Origin: Ostreococcus lucimarinus
Lineage: Eukaryota
Direction: 5' to 3' (one strand)
Length of the DNA: 64,000 nucleotides
NCBI GenBank assembly: GCA_000092065.1
Contig: CP000594.1
Position numbers and translations under genes: made by a program. The notes below the pieces were generated by a model, which did not search any database, was not told where the DNA came from, and saw nothing but the letters and a program-made list of their open reading frames with translations. Positions 37,497 to 57,400 of the stretch are shown here, piece after piece; within the stretch, counting starts at the first letter, position 1; each line of letters opens with the position of its first letter.

Positions 37497-40400
37497 CTAA
37501 AAAATCAAATCAAGACCAAATACGGCGCTGATGACAAATAATACACCGAAGGCGAGCGCGACGGCGCTCGATCCACGAGCGATATAGCTCACAAACTTGG
37601 GATTATTCTTCTCCAACGCTGCCGTACCCGCACCAATGCAGTACGTGTACGTCCCCATGGCGATAATGGTTCCGATGAAGAACGTCGCCAAAAAAGAAAT
37701 CGCCTCGACGCGAGGGAGCGCCAGGGCAGGTAAAAGCAGAAACAATGAATCCGGTTGTAATCCATGGATGGTGCCAGTAATATACGTCCATGAGATGAAG
37801 CTGCTATCGCGCTTCGCGGGCACATCGCTCCCATGCGAGTGCGAATGCGAGTGTGAGTGTGAGTGTGAATGTGAGTGCGAGTGACCGCCCATGCTTTCCC
37901 AAAAGCCAATAGCGCCAATAATAATGAGCGTCAAACCGACGATTCCTTGTCCAAACTGACCGATAACTTCCAAGTTGAGCGGTAATTTATCCCTCAAAGC
38001 GATGAAAATACATCCAAATAAAATTTGACCCGTGTTATGCCCGAGCCCCCAAAGCGCGCCCATCAACGCGTTTTGCGCTCTGCTCGGTCCCACTGTCAGT
38101 GGCGTGAGTGCCGCTAAGTGGTCTGGCCCCGTGAGCGTGTGCAAGCAACCGGCTAATAGACCAGCCCATGCAGACTTAAACGCCGTGATTACGCTCATCC
38201 AGTGTGCGACGTGCAAATGTTTGACCCAAATGGCAATCGCTTCGCTGCACACCGAGTACGCTGCGCCCAAGCAACAAAACACGGTGAACGTCGTGAGGGC
38301 CACGGTAGTACTCTTGGACAACGGCTGTCGCCCGAACGTGACAAGCAAACGCACTGAGTTCATCGCCACCATGAGGGTCGCGCCTTCGTGCAGCAATACC
38401 GCCAACCATAGCGGAAACGCGCCGAAGAGAGCGGGAATAGCTGACCCCAAGATTGATACCACGGCGAGTGCGATGTTTTGTCGTAAAGTGCGTCGCGTGC
38501 GCTCGGCGATGGAAAACAGCTCTGGTAATTGAGAGATGCCTCCTTCGTCTTTAGTGAGCAACAGTACATCCGCCGCACTCGCGGCGGCATCGCTCGGCGT
38601 CGACGCGATGGCGACGCCGACATCCGCGGCGGCGAGCGCTGGGGCATCGTTGATACCATCGCCAACCATGGCCACGCGAGGATATTGCTTGGATTTCACG
38701 CGCTCTCGCATTGATTCAACCAGTGCAAGCTTTTGAGACGGAGTCAATCCGGCGTGTACGTCTTCCGGTTTCAACTTGATCTCCTCAGCCATGGCTATGG
38801 CGCTCGTCTTGTTGTCGCCCGTGAGCATGGCCAACTCCATACCCGTCGAGTCGCTCGCCACCTCCCACCATCTCCGTCGGCACTTGCCAGTACGCAGGGA
38901 CTCGATGGCATCGGGCGCCTGCAAATTAAGCGTATCACTAAACCTAAACAGCGCCGGGCTTTCGCCCTCAATCGCGAGCACAGAGAGCACTTCGCCCTCT
39001 TGCGCGATGACCTCGGCGGAGCATTCCGCAGCGCCAGTGTTACACAGCTCGAGCGCAAACTCGGAGCTACCGAATCGCGCACGCTTGCCGTCGATCGTGC
39101 CTTCCACACCACTCCCCGCGATGACTTTGTAATCCGTCACGGGACCGACGTCTGGCAAAATGATCCCCCGCGCCGCTTGCGTCACCGCGGCGGCAATCGG
39201 GTGGGACGAACCGCGTTCGAGGCTCAGCGCGTACGCCAGAGCCTTGACTGACGCGCTCGGAGCAGTGTCGTGTTGCGCACCGTCTTCAAATTGTGTGATA
39301 TTCGTGCAGCTCATTTGCCCCGTCGTGATGGTTCCCGTCTTATCGAGCGCCACCGCGCCGACTTCGGCCAAAGCGTCGAGAGTCAAGCCGCCTCGAATGA
39401 GCACACCTCGCCGAGCCATGGCCCCGATGGCCGCCACGTACACGAGCGGCGACATCAACAATGCACACGGCGCTGCGGAGGATAAAAACGCAAAGCTGCG
39501 ATACATGGCACCGCCGCGACCCAAAAATGGAATCCCGAGCACCATCGGCGCCGCGGCCATGGTAATAAAGGTGATGGCCAATATCGCCTTACTGTAGCGG
39601 TCTCCTATGCTATCGATCAATCGTGAGACTTTCGGACGACGCCGCTGCGCAGCCTCGGTGAGTCGCGCGATTCGCGCCGGTGTGCTCTCCTCGCTCGATC
39701 TCAAGCTCTTCACCACGAGCACGCCGTCGGTGTTCATCGCGCCGGCGGGAATCTCATCGCCGTATCTCTTCATCACCGGCAAAGCCTCACCGGTGATGTG
39801 TTGAATGCTCACTAACGCGCTGCCGTGGACAACCATACCATCCAACGGCACTTGCTGTCCAGCCTTGACGAAAATCATCGTCCCAACGTCGACGTCCGCC
39901 GCGGGCATCTCTCGGAGCGTCGTCAAATCCGGCGTCCCATCGGCGAGCAACTGCACGACGTCCGCCGTCGTGGGCACCGTGCCCCACAACGCCTTCAAAT
40001 CCCCCCGAGCGTGCAGCGTCAATCGATCCTCCACGAAGTGCGCCAGGGCGAAGAGCACCAAGAGCAGCGCGCCCTCCATCGCGCACCCCAAGAGCACGGT
40101 GCCGAACACGGCCAACGTCGTGAGCACGTGAATGTTCACGTTCCCCACCGCGAGCTCGTACGTCACGTCCACAAACTCGGGCGTCCCCGCCAACACGTAA
40201 ACCAGAATCGTGCACACCCGACTGACGTTCGCCGCCATCGTCGTCTCCACCAATCCGCCGCCGCCGACGTGCGTCGCCACGTGCGCCGCCCCCGCGACGA
40301 GAAACAGCGCCCACGACACCACCGCCACCGCCGCGTTCCCGCGCAGGAAATCCGCCACCGCGTGCAAACCAGTGGCGTTAAACATCGCATCCAGCGCCCT

Positions 40401-40889
40401 CTCCGTGCGTCCGCGCGGTGCAAACTCCCCGGAGCTCGTCGCCGCCATCATCCCCGCCTGCGACACGAACTCGTCCTCGTCCGCGCTCATCGCGCCGTCC
40501 ATCGCCCGCGCGCCCCGCGCCTTACCGCACGAGTGCCCACAACACGAGTGAAATTCCCCACCGTGCGCCCGCGCGCGCTCGAAACCGCGTCGACCGCCTT
40601 CCCCGCGCGTCCGCGTCCCGCGTCCCGCGTCCACCCTCGCGAACCTCCCCCCCCGCGCCCCCACGACGCGCGCGCGCTCGCGATTCGACGCCGCGCGCGC
40701 GCTCGACGCGTCCATCCGCGCGCTCGCGCGCGTCCGGTCGCATCTGTCTCGCGCGCGCGTCCCCGTCGCCGCCCCCGTCGCCGTCGCCGCGCGCGCGACA
40801 ACGATGCGCGTCGCCGTCGTCGCGCGTCCGCGCGCGCGCGGCGCGCCCGCGAGCGCGCGCGGCGAGGGCGCGATCGCGTGCGCGCGCAT
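37497..40889 (-). CDS. Single 1130-aa ORF joining a P1B-4 (HMA1/CoaT-type, SPC/HEGxT) heavy-metal P-type ATPase to a C-terminal HupE/UreJ-like metal permease domain that carries an (HS)7 loop
   Basis: ATPase motifs: HSCCGHSCG metal site, ITGEALP (TGEA), AAPCALLMSPL (xPC), DKTGTITTG, MLTGDN, GDGINDAPAL, LLHEGATLMV. With no intervening stop, the C-terminus then reads LHTLTGPDHLAALTPLTVG...GLGHNTGQ...GGHSHSHSHSHSHSHSHG...HGLQPDS... This fits the HupE/UreJ H-x3-G-x-DHL signature plus ~6 further TM helices. Confidence 0.8.
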   Translation of the reverse strand: MRAHAIAPSPRALAGAPRARGRATTATRIVVARAATATGAATGTRARDRCDRTRASARMDASSARAASNRERARVVGARGGRFARVDAGRGTRTRGEGGRRGFERARAHGGEFHSCCGHSCGKARGARAMDGAMSADEDEFVSQAGMMAATSSGEFAPRGRTERALDAMFNATGLHAVADFLRGNAAVAVVSWALFLVAGAAHVATHVGGGGLVETTMAANVSRVCTILVYVLAGTPEFVDVTYELAVGNVNIHVLTTLAVFGTVLLGCAMEGALLLVLFALAHFVEDRLTLHARGDLKALWGTVPTTADVVQLLADGTPDLTTLREMPAADVDVGTMIFVKAGQQVPLDGMVVHGSALVSIQHITGEALPVMKRYGDEIPAGAMNTDGVLVVKSLRSSEESTPARIARLTEAAQRRRPKVSRLIDSIGDRYSKAILAITFITMAAAPMVLGIPFLGRGGAMYRSFAFLSSAAPCALLMSPLVYVAAIGAMARRGVLIRGGLTLDALAEVGAVALDKTGTITTGQMSCTNITQFEDGAQHDTAPSASVKALAYALSLERGSSHPIAAAVTQAARGIILPDVGPVTDYKVIAGSGVEGTIDGKRARFGSSEFALELCNTGAAECSAEVIAQEGEVLSVLAIEGESPALFRFSDTLNLQAPDAIESLRTGKCRRRWWEVASDSTGMELAMLTGDNKTSAIAMAEEIKLKPEDVHAGLTPSQKLALVESMRERVKSKQYPRVAMVGDGINDAPALAAADVGVAIASTPSDAAASAADVLLLTKDEGGISQLPELFSIAERTRRTLRQNIALAVVSILGSAIPALFGAFPLWLAVLLHEGATLMVAMNSVRLLVTFGRQPLSKSTTVALTTFTVFCCLGAAYSVCSEAIAIWVKHLHVAHWMSVITAFKSAWAGLLAGCLHTLTGPDHLAALTPLTVGPSRAQNALMGALWGLGHNTGQILFGCIFIALRDKLPLNLEVIGQFGQGIVGLTLIIIGAIGFWESMGGHSHSHSHSHSHSHSHSHGSDVPAKRDSSFISWTYITGTIHGLQPDSLFLLLPALALPRVEAISFLATFFIGTIIAMGTYTYCIGAGTAALEKNNPKFVSYIARGSSAVALAFGVLFVISAVFGLDLIF
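37834..37883 (-). repeat. Imperfect hexanucleotide repeat (TGCGAG/TGTGAG/TGTGAA)n encoding the (HS)7 His-Ser tract of the ATPase/HupE protein
   Basis: gcgagtgcgaatgcgagtgtgagtgtgagtgtgaatgtgagtgcgagtga on the + strand. Confidence 0.9.
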
Positions 40890-44044: not shown

Positions 44045-44937
44045 TTAAAGCGCCGTCGGGCGCCCACCGTCGACGCCGTCGCTCGACGCCTCGGCGGAGG
44101 CGCTCAAATACCCTTGCGCCCACGCCTCGTCGCGACTCCATCCGTCCTTTCCAGATGAAATCGAATTCACCGCCGTGGGCTTGGGTTCAGACGTGTACGA
44201 CGGTCTAGCGCTCTCGACGCGCGAACCGACGGCGTCGAGAAGATCGTTCGCCCACGGCGCGCCCGGCATCACTCCCGACAGATTGGGATCGGCGAAGTGG
44301 GTCTCATCTTTCGGAGCCACCACGTACTCTCCCAATCGACGCTTGATCGCGTTCAGAGCCATCTCCGCTCGAAGCGTGCGCTTTTCAAGTCTTCTGTTCT
44401 CCGCGTTCAAGCTGAGCACTTCGCGCTCGAGCGAAAAGTCGTCCACGAGCATCTTCGCGCGCTCTAAGTGCATTTGCTCCACCTTCGCCCGCAACCGCTT
44501 GCGGTCGGCGCGCGCGGGCCAACCGAGAACCAAATTCCCAAAAAAAGCGCCGAAAAACCCACCCTTCATCACCCGTCGCGTCTCCGGCTTGAGATTCATC
44601 CACTCCTTTCTAATCGGCTCCGTCACCGGCTTCAACAAATTATTAATCTGCCTCGCCGTCGGCCCAAAGTGATCGACCGCCACGTTCATCGACGGCTGTA
44701 TCAACTTCGCCTTCTCATTCATCTCCTTCGTCACCACGTTCTGCGTCGACTGCGCCCACGTCGCCGTCGTCGCCGTCGCTCGTCTCGTCAGCTCGCTCGC
44801 CTTGTCGAACCACTTCCCCCACCCCCCGCCCTTGCCGTCGCCACCGCTCGCGCTCGTCGAGGCCCCACCGCTCGCGCTCTGCGCGCCGCTCGCGCCGTTC
44901 GGTTCCTTGATCGACCGCACCGCGCGTCCGCGCGCGC

Positions 44938-44974
<37 letters not shown>

Positions 44975-45151
44975 GCGTCGTCCCGTCCCTCGTCGTCGCG
45001 CGCCGTCGTCGCGCGTCGTCGCGCGTCCGCGAAACGCGCCGGGTGCGCCGCGATCGAGTCCGCGCGCGCCGAGTCCGCGCGGCGGCGGCAGCATGGCGCC
45101 GCCGTCGTCGCGCGTCGGCGTGCGCGGACGCGCGACGACGCGTCGCGTCAA
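44045..45151 (-). CDS. Hypothetical coiled-coil protein with a poly-Thr tract; start uncertain (ATG near 45093)
   Basis: T12 run encoded by (TCG)n on the + strand at 44941-44973. The C-terminal region has amphipathic/coiled-coil character (KRLRAKVEQMHLERAKMLVDDFSLEREVLSLNAENRRLEKRTLRAEMALNAIKRRL). Confidence 0.35.
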
Positions 45152-45429
45152 CGGCTCGGTCGGACGAGGACCGCTACACAGCGCAATTGGAGGTACTTTA
45201 TGACCTCAGCGTTCATATTAGGACGGTGCGTGTACCTATTTACCGGACGAGGACTGCGTCGTATCGGTAAACAGTGCGAGCGACTGACGCTTCAGTCGCG
45301 GTCGCGCGACGGACCCGTCGTCGCGCCGCGGCGCGCGCGACGGACCGCGAGCGAGGCGTCGTCCGTCGCTCGACGTCCGCGCGGCGTTCGCGCGCGCGAT
45401 CGAGGCGCGCGCGCGTCGCGACGGACGAC

Positions 45430-48400
45430 GATGGTGTTCGAGCGGTTGTTGGCGGACCAACTGAACGCGAGGCTCGGGCGCGTGCTCGAGGGCGTCGATC
45501 GCGACGACGTGCGCGTGGGCGTGCTGAACGGAGACGTGCGGATACGGCGGGTGCGGGTGCGGGCGTCGGCGCTGACGAAGATATTGGACGAGCCGAGCGC
45601 GCGGGTGCGGTGCGGATTCGTGGACGAGCTGCGCGTGCGCGTGCCGTGGAGGAACTTGGGGAAGGAGGCGGTGCGAGTGACGTTTCACGGGGTGTACGTC
45701 GTGGGGGAGATCGATGTGAACGGAGACGACGAGGCGCGGGAGAGCGAGGAGGAGCGGAGGGAGAGACAGCGGGTGAAGGCGTTGAGGACGGCGCGCAGGG
45801 CGGCGGACGCGGCGGAGCGGGCGTGGTTGAAGTGGAATCCGGCGGTGAACGCGGAGGCTTTGGAGGCGGAGGACGGCAGGGAGAGCGCGCAGGATGGGGT
45901 GAGGAAGAGGAGCGCGATCGCTGGGCTCATCGACGTCGCCCTGGCGAACGTTCTGATTGAAATTTCAAACGTGCACGTCAGAATCGAGGGCGAGTACGGA
46001 GCGGGCGTTCCGTGGGGAATGGGACTCGTGCTCGAACGCGTGTCGCTGACGACCGTTGGAGAAGATTTCGAAAATGACTTCAAAGTCGGCGGTTTCGCCG
46101 ACAGTTTACGAAAGATGATTGCGTTAGAGCGCGTCGGCGTGTACGCCGATTTCAATTCGCCGTCAGTCGCGTCAGAGACGCCGGACGGTTGGCGAGGCAT
46201 CCGCGAAGACCAATTCGTGCGGCAAATGTCCGCGGTCTTCAATACCGAGGTTGGCGAGCGCATGAAAGAAGGCACCAGCGGCGATGTCGTGATACCGCAA
46301 TCGTACGTATTCGGACCGTTACGAGGAACGGCGACGTACGCGAGAAGAGGTCACGCCGAGGACACCAACACGCCGCTGCATCAATTACGGATGGATATAA
46401 ATTCTATTCAAATCAGCATCAAGTCAACGCAGCTTAAGGTGTTTTACAACATGTACTCCAATTTACGCACCAGTCGCGTGCGGTACACGTATGCGCATAT
46501 ACGCCCAAGGGTCGGCGTCAAAGGAAATGCGCGTTTATGGTGGCGTTTCGCGGGCGCCGGCGTTCAGATGCACGTCGACGAAATACGTAAACGGCGTGGA
46601 TTGGACTTTAAATCTAGTGTTAGCGCTATGGTGCGCATAACTGAGGCTCGCCAGCGTTATATTCCTTTATACGTCAAGCATTTGCGCTCTGCACCGCCAC
46701 CTCCAGAGTGTCTAATCGCCGAACGCGCCGAGCGACGCAATAAGCTTTGGCCACCTAAACTGAAGATTGGGATGTCGACAGAAATTGATGAAATCGAAGA
46801 AGGTATTCCCCTGCAGAGTATTATTACTTTCCGAACGCTGGCGCACGTAGAATACCGGGAGTCTGGCGGGGTGAAAGCGGCGGTAGCGAGAGAACGAGCG
46901 GCTCGCTTTGGCAAACGTCGGGTCGTCAGAGCAGTCGTCGGTCTCGCGGGCGGTGGTGCGAAGAACACGGCAAAGGTATTGAAAGGGCTGTCGGCGCCGA
47001 TTCGTGGTCTTGCTCGAGCAGTTAACAAACGCGACTCGACAGCATTATTAGTCGAGAGGCAAAAGCGTTTGCGAAAGTCGCAACCGGAAGAAGATGATGA
47101 TTCAAACTGGCGAGAAAGTCTAGAGAATACGGTGCAATTGAGCCAGCGAATGGTGGCTCTAGAAGAAGAAGCCGTGCACTCTTCGGTTGAGCTATCCGGA
47201 GTGGTGAATGTTGAAAAAGTATTAGTTTGCATGGTTGATGACGAGGTTGACAATCCAATCGGTGAGCAGGAGATTTTTAGAATAGGTGTCCATGAAGTCA
47301 GTTTGGGAACGCTGCGAGGTTCTGGACGACGAGAACAACGCGTTTCTATCCGCCGATTGGCGATCGTAAGCCCGGAAGGGACACTACTCGATTCCAGTAA
47401 GACCACTGATAATGAAGAGAGAGCGACCTCTCTCGATCGTTCACAAGTTGCGTTATGGGACAAGGCGTCCGAGTGTAACGCGGTGCAATTGCAAATAGTC
47501 AAAGGCGATGTCGAGACAGAAGAAGATATCTTCATAAAGTTTCAGATGAGGCAGTCGATCGTGCACTTATTGCGAGAGCCTTTAGATAGAGTGGCGCGAG
47601 TGGCTGTGCGACACAAAGTGACGACGGCATATCTCGAATCTTTCATTTACGACGATGAAGCGAAACAGCGCAATCACACACACTCCATCGAAAAGCAGGC
47701 AGATGAGTTCAAAATCAGACCAAGAGTGCGATTAGACGCGCGAGTTCACGGTCCCGTGATTATTTTGGATGGCGACGGCGTAAACTTACGCATAGACCTT
47801 GGTACAACGGTAATTGAGTCTATGACGCCAGTTTCAGCTGGCATCGAGAGCTCACTAGCAAAAGAACACAATGTTTTCTCATTTCAATGCACAGGATTCC
47901 AAGTCGGATTTATCGACGATGAATGGGATACGAATTCGAACCGACCTGTGGAAGATGAACAGATAATACTTCCGCTGTTGAGTGCACCGTCGTCAAACAC
48001 CGTCGTGATTCAAAATTTGAATGCCGCATCCGATGCGCCGAATCTCAAGGTGCACTCAAAGTTCAGCGCCATTGATATTTCGGTTTCTCCTGTGCGAGTG
48101 TTTAAGATCCGTTCTTTGGTCAAGGCATTGAAGCCAACAACGTCCATAAGTGAGGAACACGTCGCCGCGGTTGTCACCGAAAACGAGGTCCGAGTGCTGC
48201 TGCTGCAATTGGATGAAAGCGGCGAAGTGTGTTGGATACCGGCGACGATATCGTTGCAAAACAATAGTTCTATGGATATTAGAACGATTAATGGGCTCAA
48301 AAGTCGAACAATTCACATCAACCTCATGGAAAGCAACGGGGCGAGCAAATTGCGAAGTGACATTTGCGCGAAACTCTCCTTGCACAAGGACGTACTCACT

Positions 48401-51400
48401 ATCGGTGAAACTGTGCATTCTTTGGACGAGTTAATGATTTCAGCTATGTCGGATGATAGTCTCAGCGTGATGTTTGATATTGACGATGATGATGCGAGAT
48501 CTCGCGACACGGTCCTGTTCGATGCATGGTACGCACGGATTAACGGCGTCGCTCGCGAAAATATCACTAGGCTGACAAATGCTGCAAAGAACGGCAAGCT
48601 GTCGAAGACTCAAGTGATTTTAAGTGTCGGCGCCGAAAAGCTGTCTGTTCATGTTTTTGCACCTCTCAAAGCACATCCATCCGAAGATGATTCCGCTGTG
48701 ATAAATGACGAATCAGATTCTGAACGAGCGCTCGCAAGCCTTTGTTTCGACGAGCTCAACTACGACTCGTCGTTGGCTCGTACCGTGAAAGTCCATCATA
48801 TAAAAGCAAACTCACTCGTTTTGTACGACAGATATGCAAGTGAAGGTCTTGGACGCGAGTGCATCGCCGGAATTGGAGGACAGGGCTCCGGTCAACCCCT
48901 ACTTACAGTCACGGTCGCCGTTCGCCATCAGAGCGATCCCCAATATTGCGGATTGGACAAGCTGATCGAAGTCGACATTCACAAAGAGTTAGTGATGAAT
49001 ATTCGTCGGCCCACGCTCCTTGCATTGATCTCGTTGAGATTCAGACTGCGTCCACCCGGTTTCAAGATTATTAAGATCATGCCTGATGTATCGTCGCGCA
49101 TCATGATTTCTGGCAAGCTCGTAAAACGGATCAAACGCGAGATACGCGTGAACGTTGCGGCAGTGACTGCGAATGGCTTTTATGATCACGACAAAGAGAT
49201 GGATGTTCCTGTGCTAGTGTTGCGTGCCGAAGATTCGTATTGGAGCACCATTATCAGTCCTCCAACACGTGAAACAAGCGTAAGCGTTGGCACCATAAAA
49301 CTTGCGACGGGACAGATGCAAGCTCGGGGCGCTTGGAATCTACAACCTTCACCCGAGTCGAGCTCAAACATCATACTTTTACGTAATGACGTGTACGACA
49401 GAGGAGAAGAATTAGACGGGGCCGATGTGTCGTGGGAGATCGAGCTCGGAAATTTGGACATAGTTATGACTCCTGAGATGAAGGAAATTGGATCGTGGTT
49501 CGCATTCTTTCGTCAAATAAGACCTGATCATATTGAAAAGTACGTCCACCCATGTGCACGACCTCGAGCTGGATTTCAAGTGCTCAAATCCCGTCTCTTG
49601 ATCAAGATGGACGATCAAAGGATCACCTTGCCCGTCGCCCTCAGCGAGGGCGAGTCAAATCACGACGTCGTCATCAACTCAGGATGTGTAGAAATCACCA
49701 GATCATTTTCTTCGAAAGCAATCAATGAAGCGCATTCAATATTTTGGCAAACAACGGCATTGAGCGTGTCAGAGTTTGAAGTAAGTGTCATCTCATTTGC
49801 GGAGAAGCGGAGAGAAAGCGTTTCTAAAATTACGCAGAAGCCGTTTGGTGTGAAATTGTCTTTGCGGAAGAGAATTGACAGTGGCCCCGCAATCGTGAAT
49901 GAACTCGATGATAAGAACAAAATCAGAGTGCAGCCTATTTTCCTCGACTTATCCGGTAGCGAATTTCGATGTGATCCACGATTCCATCAAGAACATTCAG
50001 TTGAGTAAAGTTCGGCCGAACGTCAAAGTGGAAAATCCTATCAGATGGGGTAGCGTCGGACCGCTCCCTGTTTCAGACGTGCTCGCGCCGGCATCGTTGA
50101 AGTCGATGGAATTGAGCGTTATTCTGAGCAGCGCAAAACTCCGCGTCTTCCGGCTACCGATGCAAAGTCGTCCCCTCTCAACGATAAAGGTAGTTGGCGT
50201 CGACGTGTTTGTCGTAAAAAACTTGAATCGCAAGTCTGGAATCAATCTCGACGCTACCGTGGATATGATTGGCGTCGACGATAATTCTCGACAATCCCAG
50301 AACCTTAAAGTCAAGCACGTTCTCTATGCGGGTTCTCCGAAATTACCATTGCTTCATTTGACGCTCGGTGTGAATGATGACAGCACGCGCCTGCGAATTT
50401 CGCTACAGCATGTAGAAGTATTGCTGCGTGTGGGAATCATTTTGGATACCATACGGACTTTCGCACCTCGAAAATTTGGAGGGGTCTTTTTAGCCAGTAC
50501 GATTCTTCCTCAAGACATTAAGTGCGTGCACGGCAGTGACTTCCATCTCGATAAGGATGTCACTCTGACGAAAAGTACGAGACTGCTGGCCGACGATCCC
50601 AAAATTGTTGCTGGCAAATATGTGCTGCGCGGAGGTGGACATACCATAAAATTCGCCGATGGCAAAGGAGCGATCATTCGTCATTATTCCCATGGCTCTC
50701 GACGCAAGACGATGCCACGCATTATTATCGGTCATGGCGCAACGCTGAAGATTGAAAACGTCACCTTCAATTGTACACGCTCAACATTGTCAAGGTTTAT
50801 CAAAATGATGCCCGGCGGTAGTTACTCCCTCGGTAAGAGTGTTTCCTTTGACGAGACCGAAGAAGAGTTGATACCGGTTCACGATGGTCTTGTTGAAAGC
50901 ACACCAGTTATTGATGCCGCAACAAAGCGTGCAGAAGAAGGACCAGGGCGAAGAATGAAGGAAATTAAAAAGAAACCGCTGTTGGTCGAGGTGGATGTGT
51001 CATGCGTACATATAGTCATCGGTGAAGAATTGAGAGCTGATCAGATCAACTTGATGTTTGGAGTCGATGTGGCAATAATTCGGGACGAAGAATTGAACAC
51101 GACGGGAACTTATCAGCTACTTCGTCTTCGTACGAAGGACACTATGAAACCACCGCTTCTGGAACCAGCAAGCGTGACAATGCACGTTGTATCGCGTGAT
51201 GGCGGCACCACAACTTGCACGGGGTGTGTGACACCTATCAAGATGCAGTTGAGTCCCAACAGGATTTGTATCTTGAAGAATTTCACGGAACGTATTGAGC
51301 GATCATTTGCAATTGCGCCCATCTTGCAAACCGGCGTGTATTCGTGTGTCTGGGCAGGACATGCAACCACTTTAACAAAAAAAGTAACTGAGGCGGGTGT

Positions 51401-54400
51401 GCTCCGACAAAATCAAGCCGGTAGCAATACTTCCTACTCTATCTGGAGACCCGTTGCTCCACCTGGTTACGCCATACTATCTGATGTCGTGAAGTCTGAA
51501 GGAGGAGCTCCTGAAACGCAAGTTTTGATCGTTCGGGATGCGCCCGCTCTGTGCACGTTGCCAGAGAGATTTGAGAAAGTCAAAGGCACCGCAAATCCTT
51601 GCCTGTGGCGCCCGATCGCACCGACGGGTTTCGTGAGCTTAGGCGATATTGCGTCAGTATCGGATGCGGATGAACCGTCGCTGGACGTCGTCCGGTGTAT
51701 TCGAGAAGAGCTCGTGACGAACATCGGTCAAGCGTCTACACTCGCAAACTTTCGCTTGTACGGAGATTTCAGTCAATCGAATACAACGTTGTGGCAAATG
51801 AATAACAGAGTCCGCGGATTCGTGGTGGTCTCGAAGTCGAATATTCGGCCTTACGCGTACGACATTCGCTCCCCTCCTGGATTTCAACGCAAAGTTTCGA
51901 CGGGAACCAAGGAGAAGATAAAGCTGCAGGAAAAGGAGTGCGAGTGTGCCACCGCGGTGAATTTCAAAAAGATTGGCATGGCACAAAACGCGAAGTCAAC
52001 TGTTGGGTTTTGGGAAGTCATTCCGCCTACGGGTTATGTATCCACCGGACACTGCATGAGTGTGGGCAAACTTCCGCCTTTAAGCAGTAGAGTGTTCGCG
52101 GACGATAAACGTACTTTTCGACAACCAGAGTCATATGAAAAAGTTGCTTCAGCGCGTACGTACGGCACCACACAGCGTTTGACAATTTGGAAACCAGTGC
52201 CATGCGCCGGGTTTGTGAGCGTCGGGTTTGTTGTCACCACTGAAGATAACGAGCCTTCTGTGAATGACTCGATCGTCTGCGTCCGAGCAGAATTGGTATC
52301 TTACATGCATCAAAGGAACTGGACTACAGACAACTCTGTTTGGACAGTTGACGAAAATGCTACAGACACCACGCACTTCTGGATCCACAAATGATCACAC
52401 GAAAAATTTCGTTATGAGTGTTTTGACGACTGGCATGACGCCCGATTTCGGCTTTGATATCGGCTTCCTAGAAAGCTCTTCGTTAAGGGGGCAAGTACAA
52501 ATGCCAAATTTCATTATGAAATTCGACGTGCCTCTTGTGAGCGTCGGACTCTCATTTGAAAGATTGTTTCGCAACCAGATGCTCTTCTTGCTTCGATTGG
52601 AAAAAACGAAGTTGAGTTGTACGAAAACGTCGAAATTGAATCTGTCGTTAGATTCTTCGCTGTCTCTCCTGCATAGAAATACGCGACTGGGATACAGTCT
52701 AGAACCCATTGTGGCGCCGTGGAAGTTTTCGGTTCTGTTGGATGACTCAAAAAATGATGTTTCGGGCGTGAATCCCGCGGGGTTGGACATGTTCATTGAA
52801 AGTAAAAAGAAGATTGAGATAATCGTCAATCAAGCCTCCATAGTTGACGCAGTGGATGCCGTGATGCAGTTTAAGAAACCACGCGACAAAAACTCAAAAA
52901 TTGCACATTTGTTGGCTTACGAAGCCGTGCAAAACAACGTCATTGTGAATTCCACGGGACGCGACTTATGGGTTCGCGAACTGAATGGCAATATACAAGA
53001 AGTACCGCCTGGAAATAGCATTTCGCATTTGGTACATGCCGCTGAAACCGAAGCAAATTCTGGATTCGAGAGTGCATCAAATGAGCAGACGATGCGCGGT
53101 ATGACTGACGTCGTTGATGACATGAATCATCACGGTGACGAACAGCTCATTATCGCATACCTGATGATGGATATCGTGGCAATTGACTCGTTGGATGACT
53201 GGCTTTACCCCCGCATAACTTTCAAGATTTGGGATGAGGCTTTGCAGGGTCATCGTACCGATCCATTACCCATCGGCGTTACGCGCGGCTCAGCAAAGTT
53301 ACCGATCCCTCATCCTTTTTTCCATCGCGATAGTGATAGCGAGTTCATCAACAATGACGATATCACCATTATCGTCGAAATTTCTCATATTGGGCCAAAT
53401 GGCGAAACATTGAGCTTCAGTGGTGACTTTGAAGCTCCAATCGAACAACAACGCGGTGGATGGATTGGCGGTAAAACTGGAAGCTGGATAGACTGTGCTG
53501 CAGGCAATGGTGACTCCGTGAGAATTAAGCTGCGCGCTCGAGTGGTGGAAGGTTTGAATGGCGACGCCAGTCACAGAAACGGTAGAGTTGTATCAACTCT
53601 TAAAGAGTCCGCAGAAAACGATTATCAAGAGTAAATTACAAGTTGAATCACCACCTCTCATCGTGTGTCGTACGAATGACATGGTGAAGCAATGGTGGAC
53701 AAGAGATCATCAGCAAAGTAAAAGTGCCCTAAGTGCTTGGAAGCCGCACGTCCCATCGACGTATGAACTCGAGACGAGATATAAGTTTTGTTCGAGTAGA
53801 GCTGAAAACGAGTATAAACTCGTACCTTTTGGGACCATCCTCTTGCCCGGCCTCATCGCGCCTCGCAGTGCGCTCATGGCAGTTGTCTTAGAACATAATT
53901 CAGATCAGCGGGCACCGACTGCTTTTCCCTCGGGGTTCGAAAATATTTGGACGAGCGATAAAAATGATGTCTCATTTTGGAAGCCCATTGCACCAGACGG
54001 TTACGTTGCAGTTGGTAACGTGGTTGCGGCGAGCGCCGAAATGCCTTCCACCGATTGCGTCGTTTGTGTTCGCGAGGATTTGACAAAACTTGCAGAAGTG
54101 CCTCCGGATGTTGCATGGAAATCGAACAGACGATTTCGCAATAATGATGAAAGAGAATTGGCGCTTATTCAAAACGGCCAACTGAGTACTGGTGGATGGT
54201 CGTTCTTGAAGGAGAAAATCAAGCGCACGAGTCCAGGCGTGATTTCGAACGTCATTCCATCTATGCATAGACTTAATGACAGGATGTGCATTCATTCTTT
54301 GGATGACGAAGGTATTCGCGAGTTTTGGATCGATAACCGCACTCATATAGATCATATAAAGCAAGAATTACAAGCTGGAGAGTCAATTCTCGCCATTTCG

Positions 54401-57400
54401 TTTTCTCCTTCCGGGCCGTTTGAGCAAGTGCGTCTTAATCTAGGCGCTTCACACGTTGTTCGTCACAAGACTCACGATTTAGTCTTTGACAGTCAAAAGG
54501 GGCATCTTTTGAGCTATGTTTCGTGCGAAAACGAAACAGATTCTGATATATTCGTTGATGTTCATCCAGCTATGAAGAGAGAACTCACGACTTCTAATTT
54601 GGACATATCTCTGAGTGAGAAGTATGAGTCGCCGAGCGATGTCGCGGATATAGAAGTATTTGAATCGGAACGATATTACCCGTTGAGAGGATGGCGTGCT
54701 CCAAAAGACGCTATCGTAAAAGCTCGTTATAGCAGGCATAAAAGTGGACGAGGTTCGCAAAAACGGTTTCCAGACGTCAAAGCTCCAAAAGGTTTCAGAT
54801 TTGAAGGACCGTGGGAGCTCGACAAACCACCAAATCTGGTGAATGACGACGGTTGGGCGTACGGTGCTATTTGGCTAAGGAAGTGGCCACCGCCTCGTGG
54901 ATCAGACAAAAGTAAAGGTCGTGCAACCCGTCGCCGACGATGGTTTCGTCGTGTCGTTCGATTGAAATCAGCTGAAGAAATTGAATCGCGCGTTTCCCTT
55001 CATAACATGAAGCGAGATTTCATCGAAGATTGGCACGGCACGTTGGCGGTACACGGACGTCTTACGCTACCTTCTTGTTCACGAACCGAGTCCTACATGT
55101 TGGCGTTACGCACGGGGGCTGACGTCGCATCAATTACCGCTCCGTCGTTTACCGAGAGAGATGACGCGCTGGATATTCGTGACGTGTTATCAGAGCAAGG
55201 CAACTGTGCGCTTGCTTACAACAACCTGCACGATCACTTTCTTTTGGTCAAAGAAGAATTGTCGAATGATGTGCAAAGTAGCGCGATAGGTGCTATTCCA
55301 GGCGTCAAGATTCGTGTCGTTGCCCCTGTTCACGTTGTCTCATTGATGGATTGTCCGTCGCAAGTTGTTTTGTACGCCAATGGCGAAGAAAGAATTGCCA
55401 TGCATCTTGCCGCGAACGAAACGAAACGTATCACGGCGATCGATGCAAACTGTGATACAATAGAGGTGCTCGTGTCTTTGTTCGAAGATTATCTCAGCCT
55501 TAGTAACGACAGGCCGCTGCGTCTAGATGTCACCCCGGCTGGAAGTCCACCGGCGCCACAGGTAAACTGGTTGAACATCAAAGGCTATCCGTATGTGGTT
55601 TCTATGCTGTTGATGGAGACGTGTAGAACTAGAATGGCGGGTGATAAATTCAACGATGATCCTTCGCAGCATCTCTTGAGTCTGACGTATCGCAATGTGC
55701 TGATGGTTACAAATGCATCACCGATCGACATTAAGTGTTTGGCGTGGGTCGCTGGCACAAGTACGACAAACGCGCACATAGATGCATACGTTGGGGTACC
55801 CAAAGGCGAGTCGCAACCTGCCATGTTTCTGAAATCGAGTGCGAAAACCCTCGCCAAAGTTTCGAGCAAAGAATTTGTGCTCGGTTTTTGTATCGATTCG
55901 TCTCCAGTACTAGTGAAAATTTCACCAAGTTCTGAGCCCGTGATGTTTACGCTTATGACAGCAAGTGGGGACGAACTTGCCTTTCAATGTTCCGTAGTAT
56001 TATGGGAGGGTCAAAACACCAACGCCGCGACATGGCCAACGCTTGAAGTTGTTTTACAACCCGTGCTCGTGGCGATCAACTTGACTCGAATTCCTCTCGC
56101 GATTCGCTCAAACACTATGGAACACAAGATACTCGAGCCAGGTTCATATCCCACGCCGTTTTCTTTGGATATTAAGTCTTCGAAAAGCGTAGACGAAGTT
56201 GAAGCCGTGCTTAATCAAGCCGCGATTCAAATAGCGGATATGTCGTGTCATTCGGAAGGAAAAGATATACTTTGGAGTTCGCCGCTGCAGAATTTGGTGC
56301 GCTATTCTGGAGCGATGTGGAGCATCCCACAAGGTGCCTCCCCCTTGGCGGATGAAATTAATGCATTTAGAAGACTTGGAGGTATCGACGAGTCTGGCGA
56401 AAACGTAAATTTCAAGGCACCTATCATCGTTCAGTTTCTTGTCGAGCGCGGTGAGCACGGTTGCTTCAGGGTCTTTTTTAGGGGGGGCGACGGAGCATCT
56501 CTGCAGAAGGCGCCAATCATGATCAAAAACCATTTGCACGAACCTTTACTCATTCGACAAGTGAAAGCGAACGACTTTGAGGACGTAGAAAAGAAGTCGG
56601 TGCAAAAGTCCACCGTGCGACTACTGCAAGGTATTAAGAAAGCCTCACACGGCGTAGGACAGTCTTTTGCAATTCGCCCGTTCTCAGCGATATCTTGGGC
56701 GTGGAGCGTCCCAGGTATTCCTATGAGATTGGACAACTTGAAAAAACAGGAGCTCGAGGCAAACGCCGCGGAGCTCGCATTTCGAAAGCGGAAATTTTTG
56801 GAGATATCGAACAATACAGGGGATCACGTCATCATAGAGATAAACGCGTTCAGCTCGCGATTCAAGGGTTTCATGCACCTCGGCGACATGCAATTTGGAG
56901 AACTAGGCAAGCGCACGTTACACGCAACGATTATTGGTGAATGGCGTGACGCATCGTTCGTGATCTTCGTGGTTGATAAAACGATAACGTTTGACAACTT
57001 TTCTTTCACGACTGAAATGACGAATCAAGCGAAAGCATTGACGTTGTACGCGCGGCAGCAAGAAACGCACATCTCTGTCAATTTGGCTGGCTTCTCCGTA
57101 ACAATCATCGATCGCCTCCGCGACTCATTCGTCGAGTTATTCCATCTCACGATCGACGACGTGATGATCAGGCACGGAATCAACTTGAATCAACAGCAGT
57201 TCTGTCTATAGTTATCTCAGAATTGGTGCACTGCAGATAGATTTTAGCACGCATGACGCAAGCTATCCAGTCTTCGTTTGGCACGACCCGGCGGACGGGC
57301 ACTTGCTTGAAGCGTACGCTACTTTGAGTATGAATTCTCATATCGGTGGTGACTCGATCGATGTTTATCACGTCCAACTAACGACAACGAAGAAAGGCCT

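What the first reader, a model, noticed from the sequence alone, without database searches (positions are those of the whole stretch)
37497..40889. P1B-4 heavy-metal ATPase fused in-frame to a HupE/UreJ-like Ni/Co permease domain via an (HS)7 loop
One uninterrupted 1130-aa ORF contains a complete HMA1/CoaT-type P-type ATPase with an organelle presequence and an HSCCGHSCG metal site. It carries DKTGT, TGEA, GDGINDAP and the P1B-4-specific SPC-like and HEGAT motifs. It is followed, without a stop or frame change, by ~300 aa carrying the HupE/UreJ signature (HTLTGPDHLAAL...), six more predicted helices and a perfect HSHSHSHSHSHSHSH loop. Combining a primary ATP-driven pump with a secondary-transporter-like metal permease module in one polypeptide is not a standard P1B-ATPase architecture. 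The C-terminal module could act as a metal-delivery or selectivity domain, or this could be a recent gene fusion.
Basis: partly seen in the sequence, partly recalled or inferred. Interest (0 to 1): 0.7.

Follow-up and report, generated by a model that had tools for sequence, protein, structure and literature searches.

The report
Metal pump fused to nickel-type permease
A green picoalga (Ostreococcus lucimarinus) encodes, as one conserved protein, an ATP-driven chloroplast-type heavy-metal pump joined to a nickel/cobalt-type membrane permease that plants make separately, which suggests the two plant proteins work together.

Summary
Window 37497-40889 (minus strand) is one 1130-aa ORF. It holds a complete P1B-4 (HMA1/CoaT-type) ATPase, one extra transmembrane helix, and a six-helix module with an HX5DH motif and an (HS)8H loop.

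The module is not HupE/UreJ by HMM. It belongs to the UreH/SodT/plastid "NiCo" family (Arabidopsis CGF1/CGF2, rice ZN; Pfam DsbD_2 for many members).

The fusion is not recent and not an artefact:
- At least 67 protein clusters carry both modules, including O. tauri, Cymbomonas, Pyramimonas parkeae and MMETSP transcripts.
- All 40 informative marine metagenome loci have the ATPase directly upstream.
- dN/dS is about 0.1 or lower across pump, linker and module in most comparisons.

The window is O. lucimarinus CCE9901. Its public gene model (632 aa, partial) omits the module.

The linker helix matches the extra N-terminal helix ("TM0") of stand-alone plastid NiCo proteins. The fusion therefore replaced NiCo's transit peptide with HMA1. 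It puts the His-rich loop on the same side as the pump's ATP-binding domains.

Bacterial relatives of the module sit next to Ni-superoxide dismutase genes in 11 of 57 loci.

No paper I could search describes the fusion. Functional coupling is inferred, not shown.

The parts
37497..40889 (-). Whole ORF, 1130 aa plus stop: HMA1-type P1B-4 ATPase, TM0 linker and UreH/NiCo-type permease module
   Evidence: The exact protein was also found on a Logan contig. Residues 218-849 are 100% identical to O. lucimarinus CCE9901 XP_001421458.1.
40503..40889 (-). N-terminal Ala/Arg/Gly-rich region (aa 1-129), presequence-like. The true start codon is uncertain: the O. tauri model starts at the equivalent of M130.
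   Evidence: Composition is A31 R29 G18 with 8 acidic residues out of 129, and GC3 is about 0.9. It is conserved in frame at 33-42% identity in other Ostreococcus clades. AF2 pLDDT is below 50. Targeting was not tested.
40524..40544 (-). CCGHSCG Cys/His motif (aa 116-122)
   Evidence: It is poorly conserved in orthologues, so a role as a metal site is weakly supported.
38340..40334 (-). P1B-4 ATPase core, helices MA to M6 with A, P and N domains (aa 186-850)
   Evidence: Pfam and NCBIfam matches. AF2 pLDDT is about 90. Foldseek matches ZntA 4umw, CopA and sCoaT 7qbz.
39786..39794 (-). TGE (A-domain dephosphorylation motif, aa 366-368)
39465..39473 (-). APC motif in M4 (aa 473-475), a variant of the P1B-4 SPC motif
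   Evidence: All 33 fused homologues have APC. The variant is reported for Ostreococcus and Micromonas HMA1 in PMC3922081.
39330..39344 (-). DKTGT phosphorylation motif (aa 516-520)
38640..38663 (-). GDGINDAP hinge motif (aa 743-750)
38376..38390 (-). HEGAT motif in M6 (aa 834-838), a P1B-4 signature
   Evidence: HEG[AS]T is conserved in the fused and in nearly all unfused relatives
38223..38315 (-). Linker transmembrane helix 'TM0' (aa 859-889) between M6 and the permease module
   Evidence: Hydropathy and junction alignment. AF2 predicts a helix with pLDDT 55-64. The same extra helix is present in 50 of 55 stand-alone plastid NiCo proteins and has no room in the short (presumably bacterial) homologues. 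dN/dS is about 0.1.
37500..38207 (-). UreH/SodT/plastid-NiCo-type six-helix permease module (aa 895-1130)
   Evidence: Homology to CGF/NiCo/ZN proteins. All family-invariant residues are present. AF2 pLDDT is 81. dN/dS is 0.004-0.1.
38118..38141 (-). HTLTGPDH = HX5DH signature at the break of module helix 1 (aa 917-924)
   Evidence: D and H invariant, first H nearly invariant; broken helix
37833..37883 (-). (HS)8H His-rich loop between module helices III and IV (aa 1003-1019), encoded by an imperfect hexanucleotide repeat
   Evidence: Fused homologues have a median of 10 His in this loop, stand-alone plastid homologues a median of 1. A His-rich cytoplasmic III-IV loop is described as typical of UreH proteins (PMC4284471).
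37749..37766 (-). HGLQPD motif at the break of module helix 4 (aa 1042-1047), the counterpart of HX5DH in the second three-helix half
   Evidence: (G, P and D invariant)

Best explanation
This is the Ostreococcus lucimarinus orthologue of the chloroplast-envelope pump HMA1 (a P1B-4 ATPase). It is permanently fused at its C-terminus to the orthologue of the plastid 'NiCo' protein (Arabidopsis CGF1/CGF2, rice ZN). NiCo belongs to the UreH/SodT class of secondary Ni/Co-type permeases.

Shown:
- It is one ORF.
- Both modules keep every catalytic or family-invariant residue.
- The fusion is conserved across Mamiellophyceae and Pyramimonadophyceae, including in assembled transcripts.
- Pump, linker and module are all under strong purifying selection.
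- The linker is a transmembrane helix at the position of the extra N-terminal helix (TM0) found in stand-alone plastid NiCo proteins.

Inferred anatomy:
- HMA1 took the place of NiCo's transit peptide.
- The protein has 8 + 1 + 6 helices.
- M6 ends on the ATP side. TM0 crosses the membrane. The module therefore keeps its native orientation, with its His-rich III-IV loop on the same side as the pump's A, P and N domains. That side is most simply the stroma.

Inferred mechanism:
- The protein is a single plastid-envelope metal-homeostasis unit. A divalent-metal permease (Ni2+/Co2+-type, by analogy with bacterial relatives linked to Ni-SOD) and an ATP-driven exporter of divalent metals act side by side.
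- The (HS)8H loop concentrates or senses metal next to the pump's entry site.
- The pump would remove excess or wrong metals that enter through the permease (push-pull control).

By the Rosetta-stone principle, separate HMA1 and NiCo in plants are predicted to cooperate.
For: - ORF and motifs.
- ATPase family.
- Module homology to CGF/NiCo/ZN/UreH-like proteins at E about 1e-50, with all invariant residues present.
- 67 clusters hold both modules, including Cymbomonas P0165, Pyramimonas parkeae P0178 and MMETSP transcripts P0166, P0379 and P0380.
- O. tauri models of 920 and 1000 aa include the module.
- The apparent stand-alone top hits P0002/P0003 begin inside the pump's M6 tail and share their cluster with longer pump-plus-module sequences, so they are fragments of fused genes.
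- 40 of 40 informative metagenome loci have the ATPase directly upstream. In Ostreococcus-like loci it is in the same frame.
- No stops in four orthologous ORFs. dN/dS is 0.08-0.11 for the pump, 0.10-0.18 for the linker and 0.004-0.10 for the module.
- TM0 is present in 50 of 55 stand-alone plastid homologues, and the short (presumably bacterial) homologues have no room for it.
- Helix map from AF2, with pLDDT 84 (full length) and 81 (module).
- Ni-SOD genes (Pfam Sod_Ni, E 4e-41 and 7e-46) lie next to the module's bacterial relatives in 11 of 57 loci.
- The UreH family is described as six helices with a His-rich cytoplasmic III-IV loop, with SodT next to sodN: PMC4284471.
- NiCo is an inner-envelope protein: PMC4780311.
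- Ni-SOD occurs in Ostreococcus and Micromonas: PMC4460010.
Against: - There is no transcript or protein evidence from O. lucimarinus itself.
- Post-translational cleavage into two proteins cannot be excluded.
- Localisation, substrates and transport direction are untested for either module. The published direction of plant HMA1 (import or export) is disputed. Plant NiCo has been linked to iron through PIC1, not nickel.
- The AF2 linker helix has low confidence (pLDDT 55-64).
- If both modules keep their ancestral vectors, they move metal in opposite directions. That requires different substrates or regulation to avoid a futile cycle.
- Bacterial relatives of the module are almost never next to a P-type ATPase (1 of 57 loci), so there is no prokaryotic precedent for coupling.
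- Some fused homologues (P0166, P0177, P0181) have few or no His residues in this loop.
Confidence: 0.6

Rival explanations
1. Polyprotein or targeting device. The fusion is translated as one precursor so that the permease can share HMA1's transit peptide and insertion route. It is then cleaved in the linker, giving two independent proteins with no functional coupling.
For: The module lacks a transit peptide of its own and begins exactly where the mature stand-alone NiCo begins, at TM0. The soluble part of the linker is short and conserved in Mamiellophyceae (TFGRQPL...), so it could be a processing site.
Against: No known processing motif was identified. Fusion would still be the ancestral state in many lineages over very long times. 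Cymbomonas also has a stand-alone copy with its own N-terminal extension, so separate targeting is feasible without a fusion.
Confidence: 0.1
2. Regulatory or metal-binding appendage. The module no longer transports. It serves only as a membrane-anchored His-rich metal-binding domain, functionally like the His-rich tails of plant HMA1, HMA2 and HMA4, that senses metal or delivers it to the pump.
For: The His-rich loop is greatly expanded in fused proteins (median 10 His against 1 in stand-alone plastid homologues). Topology logic places it on the pump's ATP side. P1B-4 pumps lack classical HMA domains, and no PF00403 match was found.
Against: All intramembrane invariant residues of the transporter family are retained, and the transmembrane parts are the most constrained part of the whole protein (dN/dS 0.004-0.03 in helices IV-VI). 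That is not expected for a mere anchor. Some fused homologues have few or no His residues in the loop.
Confidence: 0.15
3. Hand-over machine like KdpFABC. The permease module forms the ion entry or exit pathway and the selectivity filter for the pump, so metal passes between the two membrane domains within one transport cycle.
For: The concept has a precedent: KdpB, a P-type ATPase, works with the channel-like KdpA, and KdpFABC chains appear among the structural matches. The covalent tether is conserved and selection acts tightly on both membrane domains. The M4 motif is APC in all 33 fused proteins and SPC in 24 of 26 unfused relatives, which suggests the pump's ion site changed together with the fusion.
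Against: There is no evidence of an interface between the modules, because coordinates and PAE were unavailable. The linker helix has low confidence. The pump retains a complete canonical ion-site set (PC, HEGxT), so it does not obviously need a partner.
Confidence: 0.1
4. Artefact. Two adjacent genes were merged by chance absence of a stop codon in GC-rich DNA, or by an assembly error.
For: GC-rich Ostreococcus DNA gives long spurious ORFs in many frames. The public O. lucimarinus model ends at M6.
Against: The same reading frame, without stops, is kept in four diverged Ostreococcus clades with near-saturated synonymous change (pS 0.6-0.8) and dN/dS about 0.1 across the junction. The fusion is present in transcriptome assemblies of other genera. 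There is no start codon plus transit peptide for a second gene. 40 of 40 informative loci are fused or adjacent.
Confidence: 0.02

Closest known systems
Plant HMA1 (Arabidopsis At4g37270) and bacterial CoaT/sCoaT: P1B-4 heavy-metal ATPases
   Same: The P-type motif set is complete (TGE, DKTGT, GDGxNDxP). M4 has xPC and M6 has HEGxT. There is no HMA (PF00403) domain. The fold matches sCoaT 7qbz, ZntA and CopA. The N-terminus is presequence-like, as expected for a plastid envelope protein.
   Different: M4 is APC instead of SPC (PMC3922081). There is no poly-His N-terminus. About 280 extra C-terminal residues form TM0 plus a six-helix permease.
Plastid NiCo / CGF1 and CGF2 (At2g16800, At4g35080) / rice ZEBRA-NECROSIS
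   Same: The module is homologous over its whole length (40-47% identity). It has every invariant residue, TM0 plus six helices, and the HX5DH and HGLQPD motifs.
   Different: Those proteins are stand-alone with their own transit peptide. Their III-IV loop is mostly His-poor. Here the transit peptide is replaced by the whole HMA1 pump.
Bacterial UreH/SodT putative Ni permeases
   Same: Six helices, a His-rich cytoplasmic loop between helices III and IV, and the H-X5-DH signature. Identity to the module is 27-37%. They are genomically linked to Ni-SOD (PMC4284471).
   Different: They have no TM0 and no ATPase partner. Only 1 of 57 loci has a P1B-4 ATPase gene nearby.
HupE/UreJ (Pfam PF04955)
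   Different: No HMM match for the module. Only 1 of 64 family members gives a weak hit (E 0.0048). It is a different family.
KdpFABC (P-type ATPase KdpB working with the channel-like KdpA)
   Same: It is the only well-studied case in which a P-type pump is combined with a module of secondary-transporter or channel type.
   Different: It consists of separate subunits, has an unrelated partner fold and transports K+ rather than transition metals. No hand-over is shown here.

Membership tests
P1B-4 (HMA1/CoaT-type) P-type ATPase | P-type core motifs: TGE, DKTGT, GDGxNDxP | tested here: met
   Positions 366, 516 and 743. Pfam E1-E2_ATPase and Hydrolase match.
P1B-4 (HMA1/CoaT-type) P-type ATPase | Heavy-metal (P1B) subfamily HMM above the curated cut-off | tested here: met
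   TIGR01525 scores 460.6 bits against a cut-off of 346.25. TIGR01512 scores 379.5 against 313.5.
P1B-4 (HMA1/CoaT-type) P-type ATPase | SPC motif in M4 | tested here: inconclusive
   The motif is APC at 473: PC is kept and Ser is replaced by Ala. The literature treats APC as a chlorophyte variant of IB-4 (PMC3922081).
P1B-4 (HMA1/CoaT-type) P-type ATPase | HEGxT motif in M6 | tested here: met
   HEGAT at 834, conserved in all fused and nearly all unfused relatives.
P1B-4 (HMA1/CoaT-type) P-type ATPase | No classical ferredoxin-fold HMA domain; fold like solved P1B pumps | tested here: met
   No PF00403 match. Foldseek: 4umw at 1.4e-32 and 7qbz (sCoaT) at 9.5e-31.
P1B-4 (HMA1/CoaT-type) P-type ATPase | ATP-driven transport of Co, Zn, Cu or other divalent metals; plastid inner-envelope location | not testable with these tools
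   Needs biochemistry and localisation.
HupE/UreJ (PF04955) | Match to the family HMM | tested here: not met
   No hit for the module at E up to 10. 1 of 64 relatives hits at E 0.0048.
HupE/UreJ (PF04955) | HX5DH-type signature in the first helix and six helices | tested here: met
   HTLTGPDH at 917-924 and six helices. The feature is shared with UreH, so it does not discriminate.
NiCoT / NicO (HoxN, NixA, RcnA) | Match to the family HMMs (PF03824, TIGR00802, PRK10019) | tested here: not met
   No Pfam hit. Only sub-threshold NCBIfam hits for short stand-alone (presumably bacterial) relatives, 14-18 bits against cut-offs of 195-333.
UreH / SodT / plastid NiCo (CGF1/2, ZN; Pfam DsbD_2 for many members) | Full-length sequence homology to named members | tested here: met
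   E 1e-44 to 1e-55 and 40-47% identity to proteins named CGF2-like, UreH-like TM domain, zebra-necrosis or nickel transporter.
UreH / SodT / plastid NiCo (CGF1/2, ZN; Pfam DsbD_2 for many members) | All family-invariant residues present | tested here: met
   36 invariant columns in the 64-sequence alignment include the query.
UreH / SodT / plastid NiCo (CGF1/2, ZN; Pfam DsbD_2 for many members) | Six helices with a His-rich loop between helices III and IV | tested here: met
   AF2 helix map. (HS)8H at 1003-1019. Family description in PMC4284471.
UreH / SodT / plastid NiCo (CGF1/2, ZN; Pfam DsbD_2 for many members) | Pfam DsbD_2 (PF13386) HMM match | tested here: inconclusive
   The query itself gives no hit. 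37 of 64 relatives hit, best E 2.9e-8. Bacterial relatives hit weakly.
UreH / SodT / plastid NiCo (CGF1/2, ZN; Pfam DsbD_2 for many members) | Nickel (or other metal) transport | not testable with these tools
   Only genomic association: Ni-SOD lies next to bacterial relatives in 11 of 57 loci.

The most novel reading that the evidence does not exclude
The fusion is a Rosetta stone for green plastids in general. HMA1 and NiCo (CGF1/CGF2) would form one machine in the inner envelope, possibly with direct hand-over of metal between the permease and the pump, as in KdpFABC. The fixed topology (His-rich loop and ATPase head on the same, stromal side) would settle the disputed transport direction of HMA1 in favour of export. 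It would also reassign NiCo from iron import with PIC1 to a role coupled to HMA1.
Probability: 0.15. Interest if true: 0.8.

Novelty: new variant of a known kind. Interest (0 to 1): 0.5.

Why it matters
HMA1 and NiCo (CGF1/CGF2, ZN) are both chloroplast inner-envelope proteins whose roles are unsettled. Whether HMA1 imports or exports metal is debated. NiCo has no demonstrated substrate, yet it is essential for chloroplast integrity.

A fusion of the two that is conserved across prasinophyte algae, selected and consistent in topology is independent evolutionary evidence that they act together. It gives concrete, testable predictions:
- HMA1 and NiCo interact physically in plants.
- The two proteins have a fixed relative orientation.
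- The function is nickel/cobalt-type rather than iron-type.

It also flags an annotation error, because the O. lucimarinus reference model is truncated. Finally, it adds a rare architecture: a P-type pump covalently joined to a secondary-transporter-type module.

Tried and rejected
- Pfam scans of the C-terminal 267 and 291 aa alone gave no family. NCBIfam has no model for this family and gave only trivial His-rich or sub-threshold hits.
- The afdb50 fold library was not installed.
- AF2 model coordinates and PAE are not exposed, so packing between the modules could not be examined.
- I looked for a bacterial precedent of linkage between a permease of this family and a P1B ATPase. Only 1 of 57 loci (L018) showed it, so I rejected it as a general association.
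- I first took P0001-P0004 to be stand-alone Mamiellales copies. P0002 and P0003 begin inside M6, and their cluster also holds longer pump-plus-module sequences, so they are contig-truncated pieces of fused genes. P0001 and P0004 begin just upstream of, or at, module helix 1 on contigs of about 1.1-1.3 kb and are probably also truncated, though this was not shown.
- Literature: Blaby-Haas & Merchant 2012 could not be fetched. Searches for HMA1+NiCo+fused, HMA1+UreH and HMA1+Micromonas+nickel found nothing describing the fusion. Hanikenne & Baurain 2014 discuss the APC motif but not the extension.
- The window holds no second copy of either module and no Ni-SOD hook motif.

Full report
**Observation**

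The minus strand of window 37497-40889 carries one uninterrupted ORF of 1130 codons. Motifs lie at these positions:
- TGE at 366
- APC at 473
- DKTGT at 516
- GDGINDAP at 743
- HEGAT at 834
- HTLTGPDH at 917-924
- an (HS)8H run at 1003-1019

Pfam finds E1-E2_ATPase and Hydrolase domains. NCBIfam TIGR01525 (heavy-metal P-type ATPase) scores well above its cut-off.

The His/Ser run is encoded by an imperfect hexanucleotide repeat at 37833-37883.

The M4 motif is APC rather than SPC, the repeat has eight HS units rather than seven, and there are seven additional helices rather than six.

The HSCCGHSCG motif exists but is not conserved among orthologues.

**Source organism**

Residues 218-849 are 100% identical to Ostreococcus lucimarinus CCE9901 XP_001421458.1, 'P-ATPase family transporter: cadmium ion, partial', 632 aa. 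That public model stops at the end of M6 and so omits the whole C-terminal module.

The O. tauri orthologues XP_003083297.2 (920 aa) and OUS49205.1 (1000 aa) include the module.

The gene is tightly packed:
- A ketoacyl-ACP synthase gene converges on it and ends 97 bp from its stop codon.
- The next upstream ORF starts 423 bp away on the other strand.
- This leaves no room for a separate promoter for the module.

**What the C-terminal module is**

On its own the module matches no Pfam family, including HupE_UreJ and NicO.

A search of 5.8 billion proteins finds 322 relatives. The named ones are:
- 'Urease accessory protein UreH-like transmembrane domain'
- 'chloroplast zebra-necrosis protein'
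- 'nickel transporter'
- At4g35080-like

They align at 40-47% identity over the whole module.

All 36 invariant columns of a 64-sequence alignment are present in the query. Of these 64 proteins, 37 match Pfam DsbD_2 and only one weakly matches HupE_UreJ.

The family is therefore the plastid 'NiCo' protein (At2g16800 and At4g35080, also called CGF1 and CGF2; rice ZN). It is an inner-envelope protein reported to interact with PIC1 (PMC4780311). It is essential for chloroplast integrity (PMC7168881).

A review of cyanobacterial metal homeostasis describes the UreH class as six helices with a His-rich cytoplasmic loop between helices III and IV. It names SodT, encoded next to sodN, as a member (PMC4284471). 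That is the anatomy seen here.

AlphaFold2 models (full length pLDDT 84.4, module alone 81.2) show six helices. Helices 1 and 4 are broken at the HX5DH and HGLQPD motifs, and the His-rich loop is disordered.

**Is the fusion real and conserved?**

BLAST of the pump and the module separately against all retrieved proteins finds 67 clusters that contain both. They include:
- O. tauri
- Cymbomonas tetramitiformis (P0165)
- Pyramimonas parkeae (P0178, from MMETSP0058)
- transcriptome-assembled ORFs marked complete (P0166; P0379 and P0380 in the P0183 cluster)

Single mRNAs spanning both modules therefore exist in related genera.

The highest-scoring apparent stand-alone hits P0002 and P0003 start inside M6 ('VALNSVRLL...'). 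Their cluster also holds longer sequences with pump plus module, so they are truncated fragments.

In 47 marine metagenome loci encoding close relatives of the module:
- All 40 with enough upstream sequence carry the ATPase immediately upstream on the same strand.
- In Ostreococcus-like loci it is in the same frame.
- The other 7 loci are cut too short to tell.

Four diverged Ostreococcus clades have no stop codon in the orthologous ORF. Synonymous sites are near saturation (pS 0.6-0.8). dN/dS values are:
- 0.08-0.11 for the pump
- 0.10-0.18 for the linker
- 0.004-0.10 for the module

By amino-acid identity the module is the most conserved part of the protein.

A neighbour-joining tree places stand-alone core-chlorophyte and streptophyte proteins in one clade and all fused modules outside it. 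A Cymbomonas stand-alone copy sits next to the Cymbomonas fused copy.

A read of 1.84 billion representative proteins finds fused forms only among these algal groups in the best 150 matches, and none that looks bacterial.

The fusion is therefore ancient, at least as old as the common ancestor of Mamiellophyceae and Pyramimonadophyceae. It is not recent.

**The linker**

Between M6 and module helix 1, every fused protein has a hydrophobic helix (aa 859-889 here). Its presence is conserved but its sequence is not.

Stand-alone plastid NiCo proteins have a hydrophobic segment at the same distance upstream of helix 1 in 50 of 55 cases. In short (presumably bacterial) homologues the HX5DH histidine lies at about residue 14-20, so they have no room for such a helix.

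I conclude that this 'TM0' is a plastid-specific addition. The fusion joined the C-terminus of HMA1 to the N-terminus of mature NiCo and replaced NiCo's transit peptide.

The topology then follows. This is inference, consistent with a rough hand count of K and R residues in the loops:
1. M6 ends on the ATP side.
2. TM0 crosses the membrane.
3. Helices 1-3 bring the chain back, so the His-rich III-IV loop lies on the same side as the A, P and N domains.
4. The C-terminus ends on the opposite side.

If the module keeps the orientation of its bacterial relatives (loop cytoplasmic, which corresponds to stromal), the pump head is stromal. HMA1 would then export from the stroma.

**Function**

Bacterial relatives of the module (27-37% identity; Planctomycetota, Verrucomicrobiota, Myxococcota, Acidimicrobiia) lie within about 1.5 kb of a Ni-superoxide dismutase gene in 11 of 57 loci. 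The Ni-hook HCDGPCGVY is present in all 11, and Pfam Sod_Ni matched at 4e-41 and 7e-46 in the two examples checked. This supports a nickel-supply role for the family.

Ostreococcus and Micromonas are among the eukaryotes reported to have Ni-SOD (PMC4460010).

Only one bacterial locus (L018) has a P1B-4-type ATPase nearby. The pump-permease link therefore appears, on this sample, to be an algal innovation.

Fused proteins have far more His in the III-IV loop than stand-alone plastid homologues (median 10 against 1).

All 33 fused pumps have APC in M4, whereas 24 of 26 unfused relatives have SPC. This hints that the pump's ion site changed together with the fusion.

My best reading is a single plastid-envelope unit in which a Ni/Co-type permease and an ATP-driven exporter act side by side, with the His-rich loop next to the pump's entry side.

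The rivals remain open:
- cleavage into two proteins
- a purely regulatory His-rich appendage
- a Kdp-like hand-over of metal between the modules

**Novelty**

The fused protein is present in public databases for O. tauri and others. I found no paper that mentions it. One key review could not be read.

It is a new architectural variant built from two known families, not a new kind of system. Its main value is as Rosetta-stone evidence linking HMA1 and NiCo, and as a constraint on their relative topology.

Noticed in passing
window 38343-40238 (aa 218-849): The public O. lucimarinus CCE9901 model XP_001421458.1 (632 aa, 'partial') covers only this stretch at 100% identity. It omits the N-terminal region and the whole permease module, so the reference annotation is truncated.
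   Followed up: yes
L004, L011, L012, L013, L015, L019, L020, L022, L031, L034, L052 (bacterial loci): Ni-superoxide dismutase genes (Ni-hook HCDGPCGVY in all 11; Pfam Sod_Ni confirmed in L031 and L034) lie within about 1.5 kb of the UreH/NiCo-like gene in 11 of 57 bacterial loci. This is a SodT-type arrangement in Planctomycetota, Myxococcota and others.
   Followed up: partly
[not shown]
   Followed up: no
window 39465-39473 (M4 motif) and alignment A1: All 33 fused pumps have APC in M4, while 24 of 26 unfused relatives have SPC (one has CPC, one APC). The Ser-to-Ala change tracks the fusion in this sample. Coccomyxa, reported to have APC, was not checked for the fusion.
   Followed up: partly
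window 37833-37883; proteins P0121, P0244, P0245: Near-identical metagenome-derived proteins (97-99% identity) diverge or frameshift exactly inside the (HS)n-coding hexanucleotide repeat. This is either assembly error or real length variation at this microsatellite-like stretch.
   Followed up: no
L095, L097 (metagenome loci, probably non-Ostreococcus Mamiellophyceae; organism not identified): The ATPase part and the module are in different reading frames about 200 nt apart, which suggests an intron in the linker region in some lineages. Several other loci of this group show an intron-like frame change near ATPase residue 347.
   Followed up: no
L018 3030-4820 and 6001-6636 (Verrucomicrobiales MAG): This is the single bacterial locus where a P1B-4-type ATPase gene (ASPC, HEGST) lies about 1.2 kb upstream of a UreH/NiCo-like gene on the same strand, with one ORF between them.
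   Followed up: partly
proteins P0165 and P0029 (Cymbomonas tetramitiformis): Cymbomonas has both a fused copy and a stand-alone copy with its own N-terminal extension. The two modules are each other's nearest relatives in the tree, suggesting a lineage-specific duplication or fission.
   Followed up: partly
window 44468-57211, + strand: The low-GC stretch of the window (GC 0.47-0.51 at 46-58 kb, against about 0.6 elsewhere) coincides with a run of large same-strand ORFs. The first (1846 aa) matches VPS13_N and ATG2. This is probably one giant VPS13-like gene split by introns or frame changes.
   Followed up: partly
window 37497-40889: GC at third codon positions falls along the gene from about 0.9 in the first 300 codons to 0.44-0.74 in the permease module.
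   Followed up: no
window ~40430-40470 (aa ~135-147): A short acidic motif, S-A/N-D-E-D/S-E/D-F-V/L-x-Q-A-G-M, just upstream of helix MA is conserved across the fused Mamiellophyceae-type pumps (Ostreococcus and several unnamed metagenome clades). The rest of the N-terminus is not conserved.
   Followed up: no
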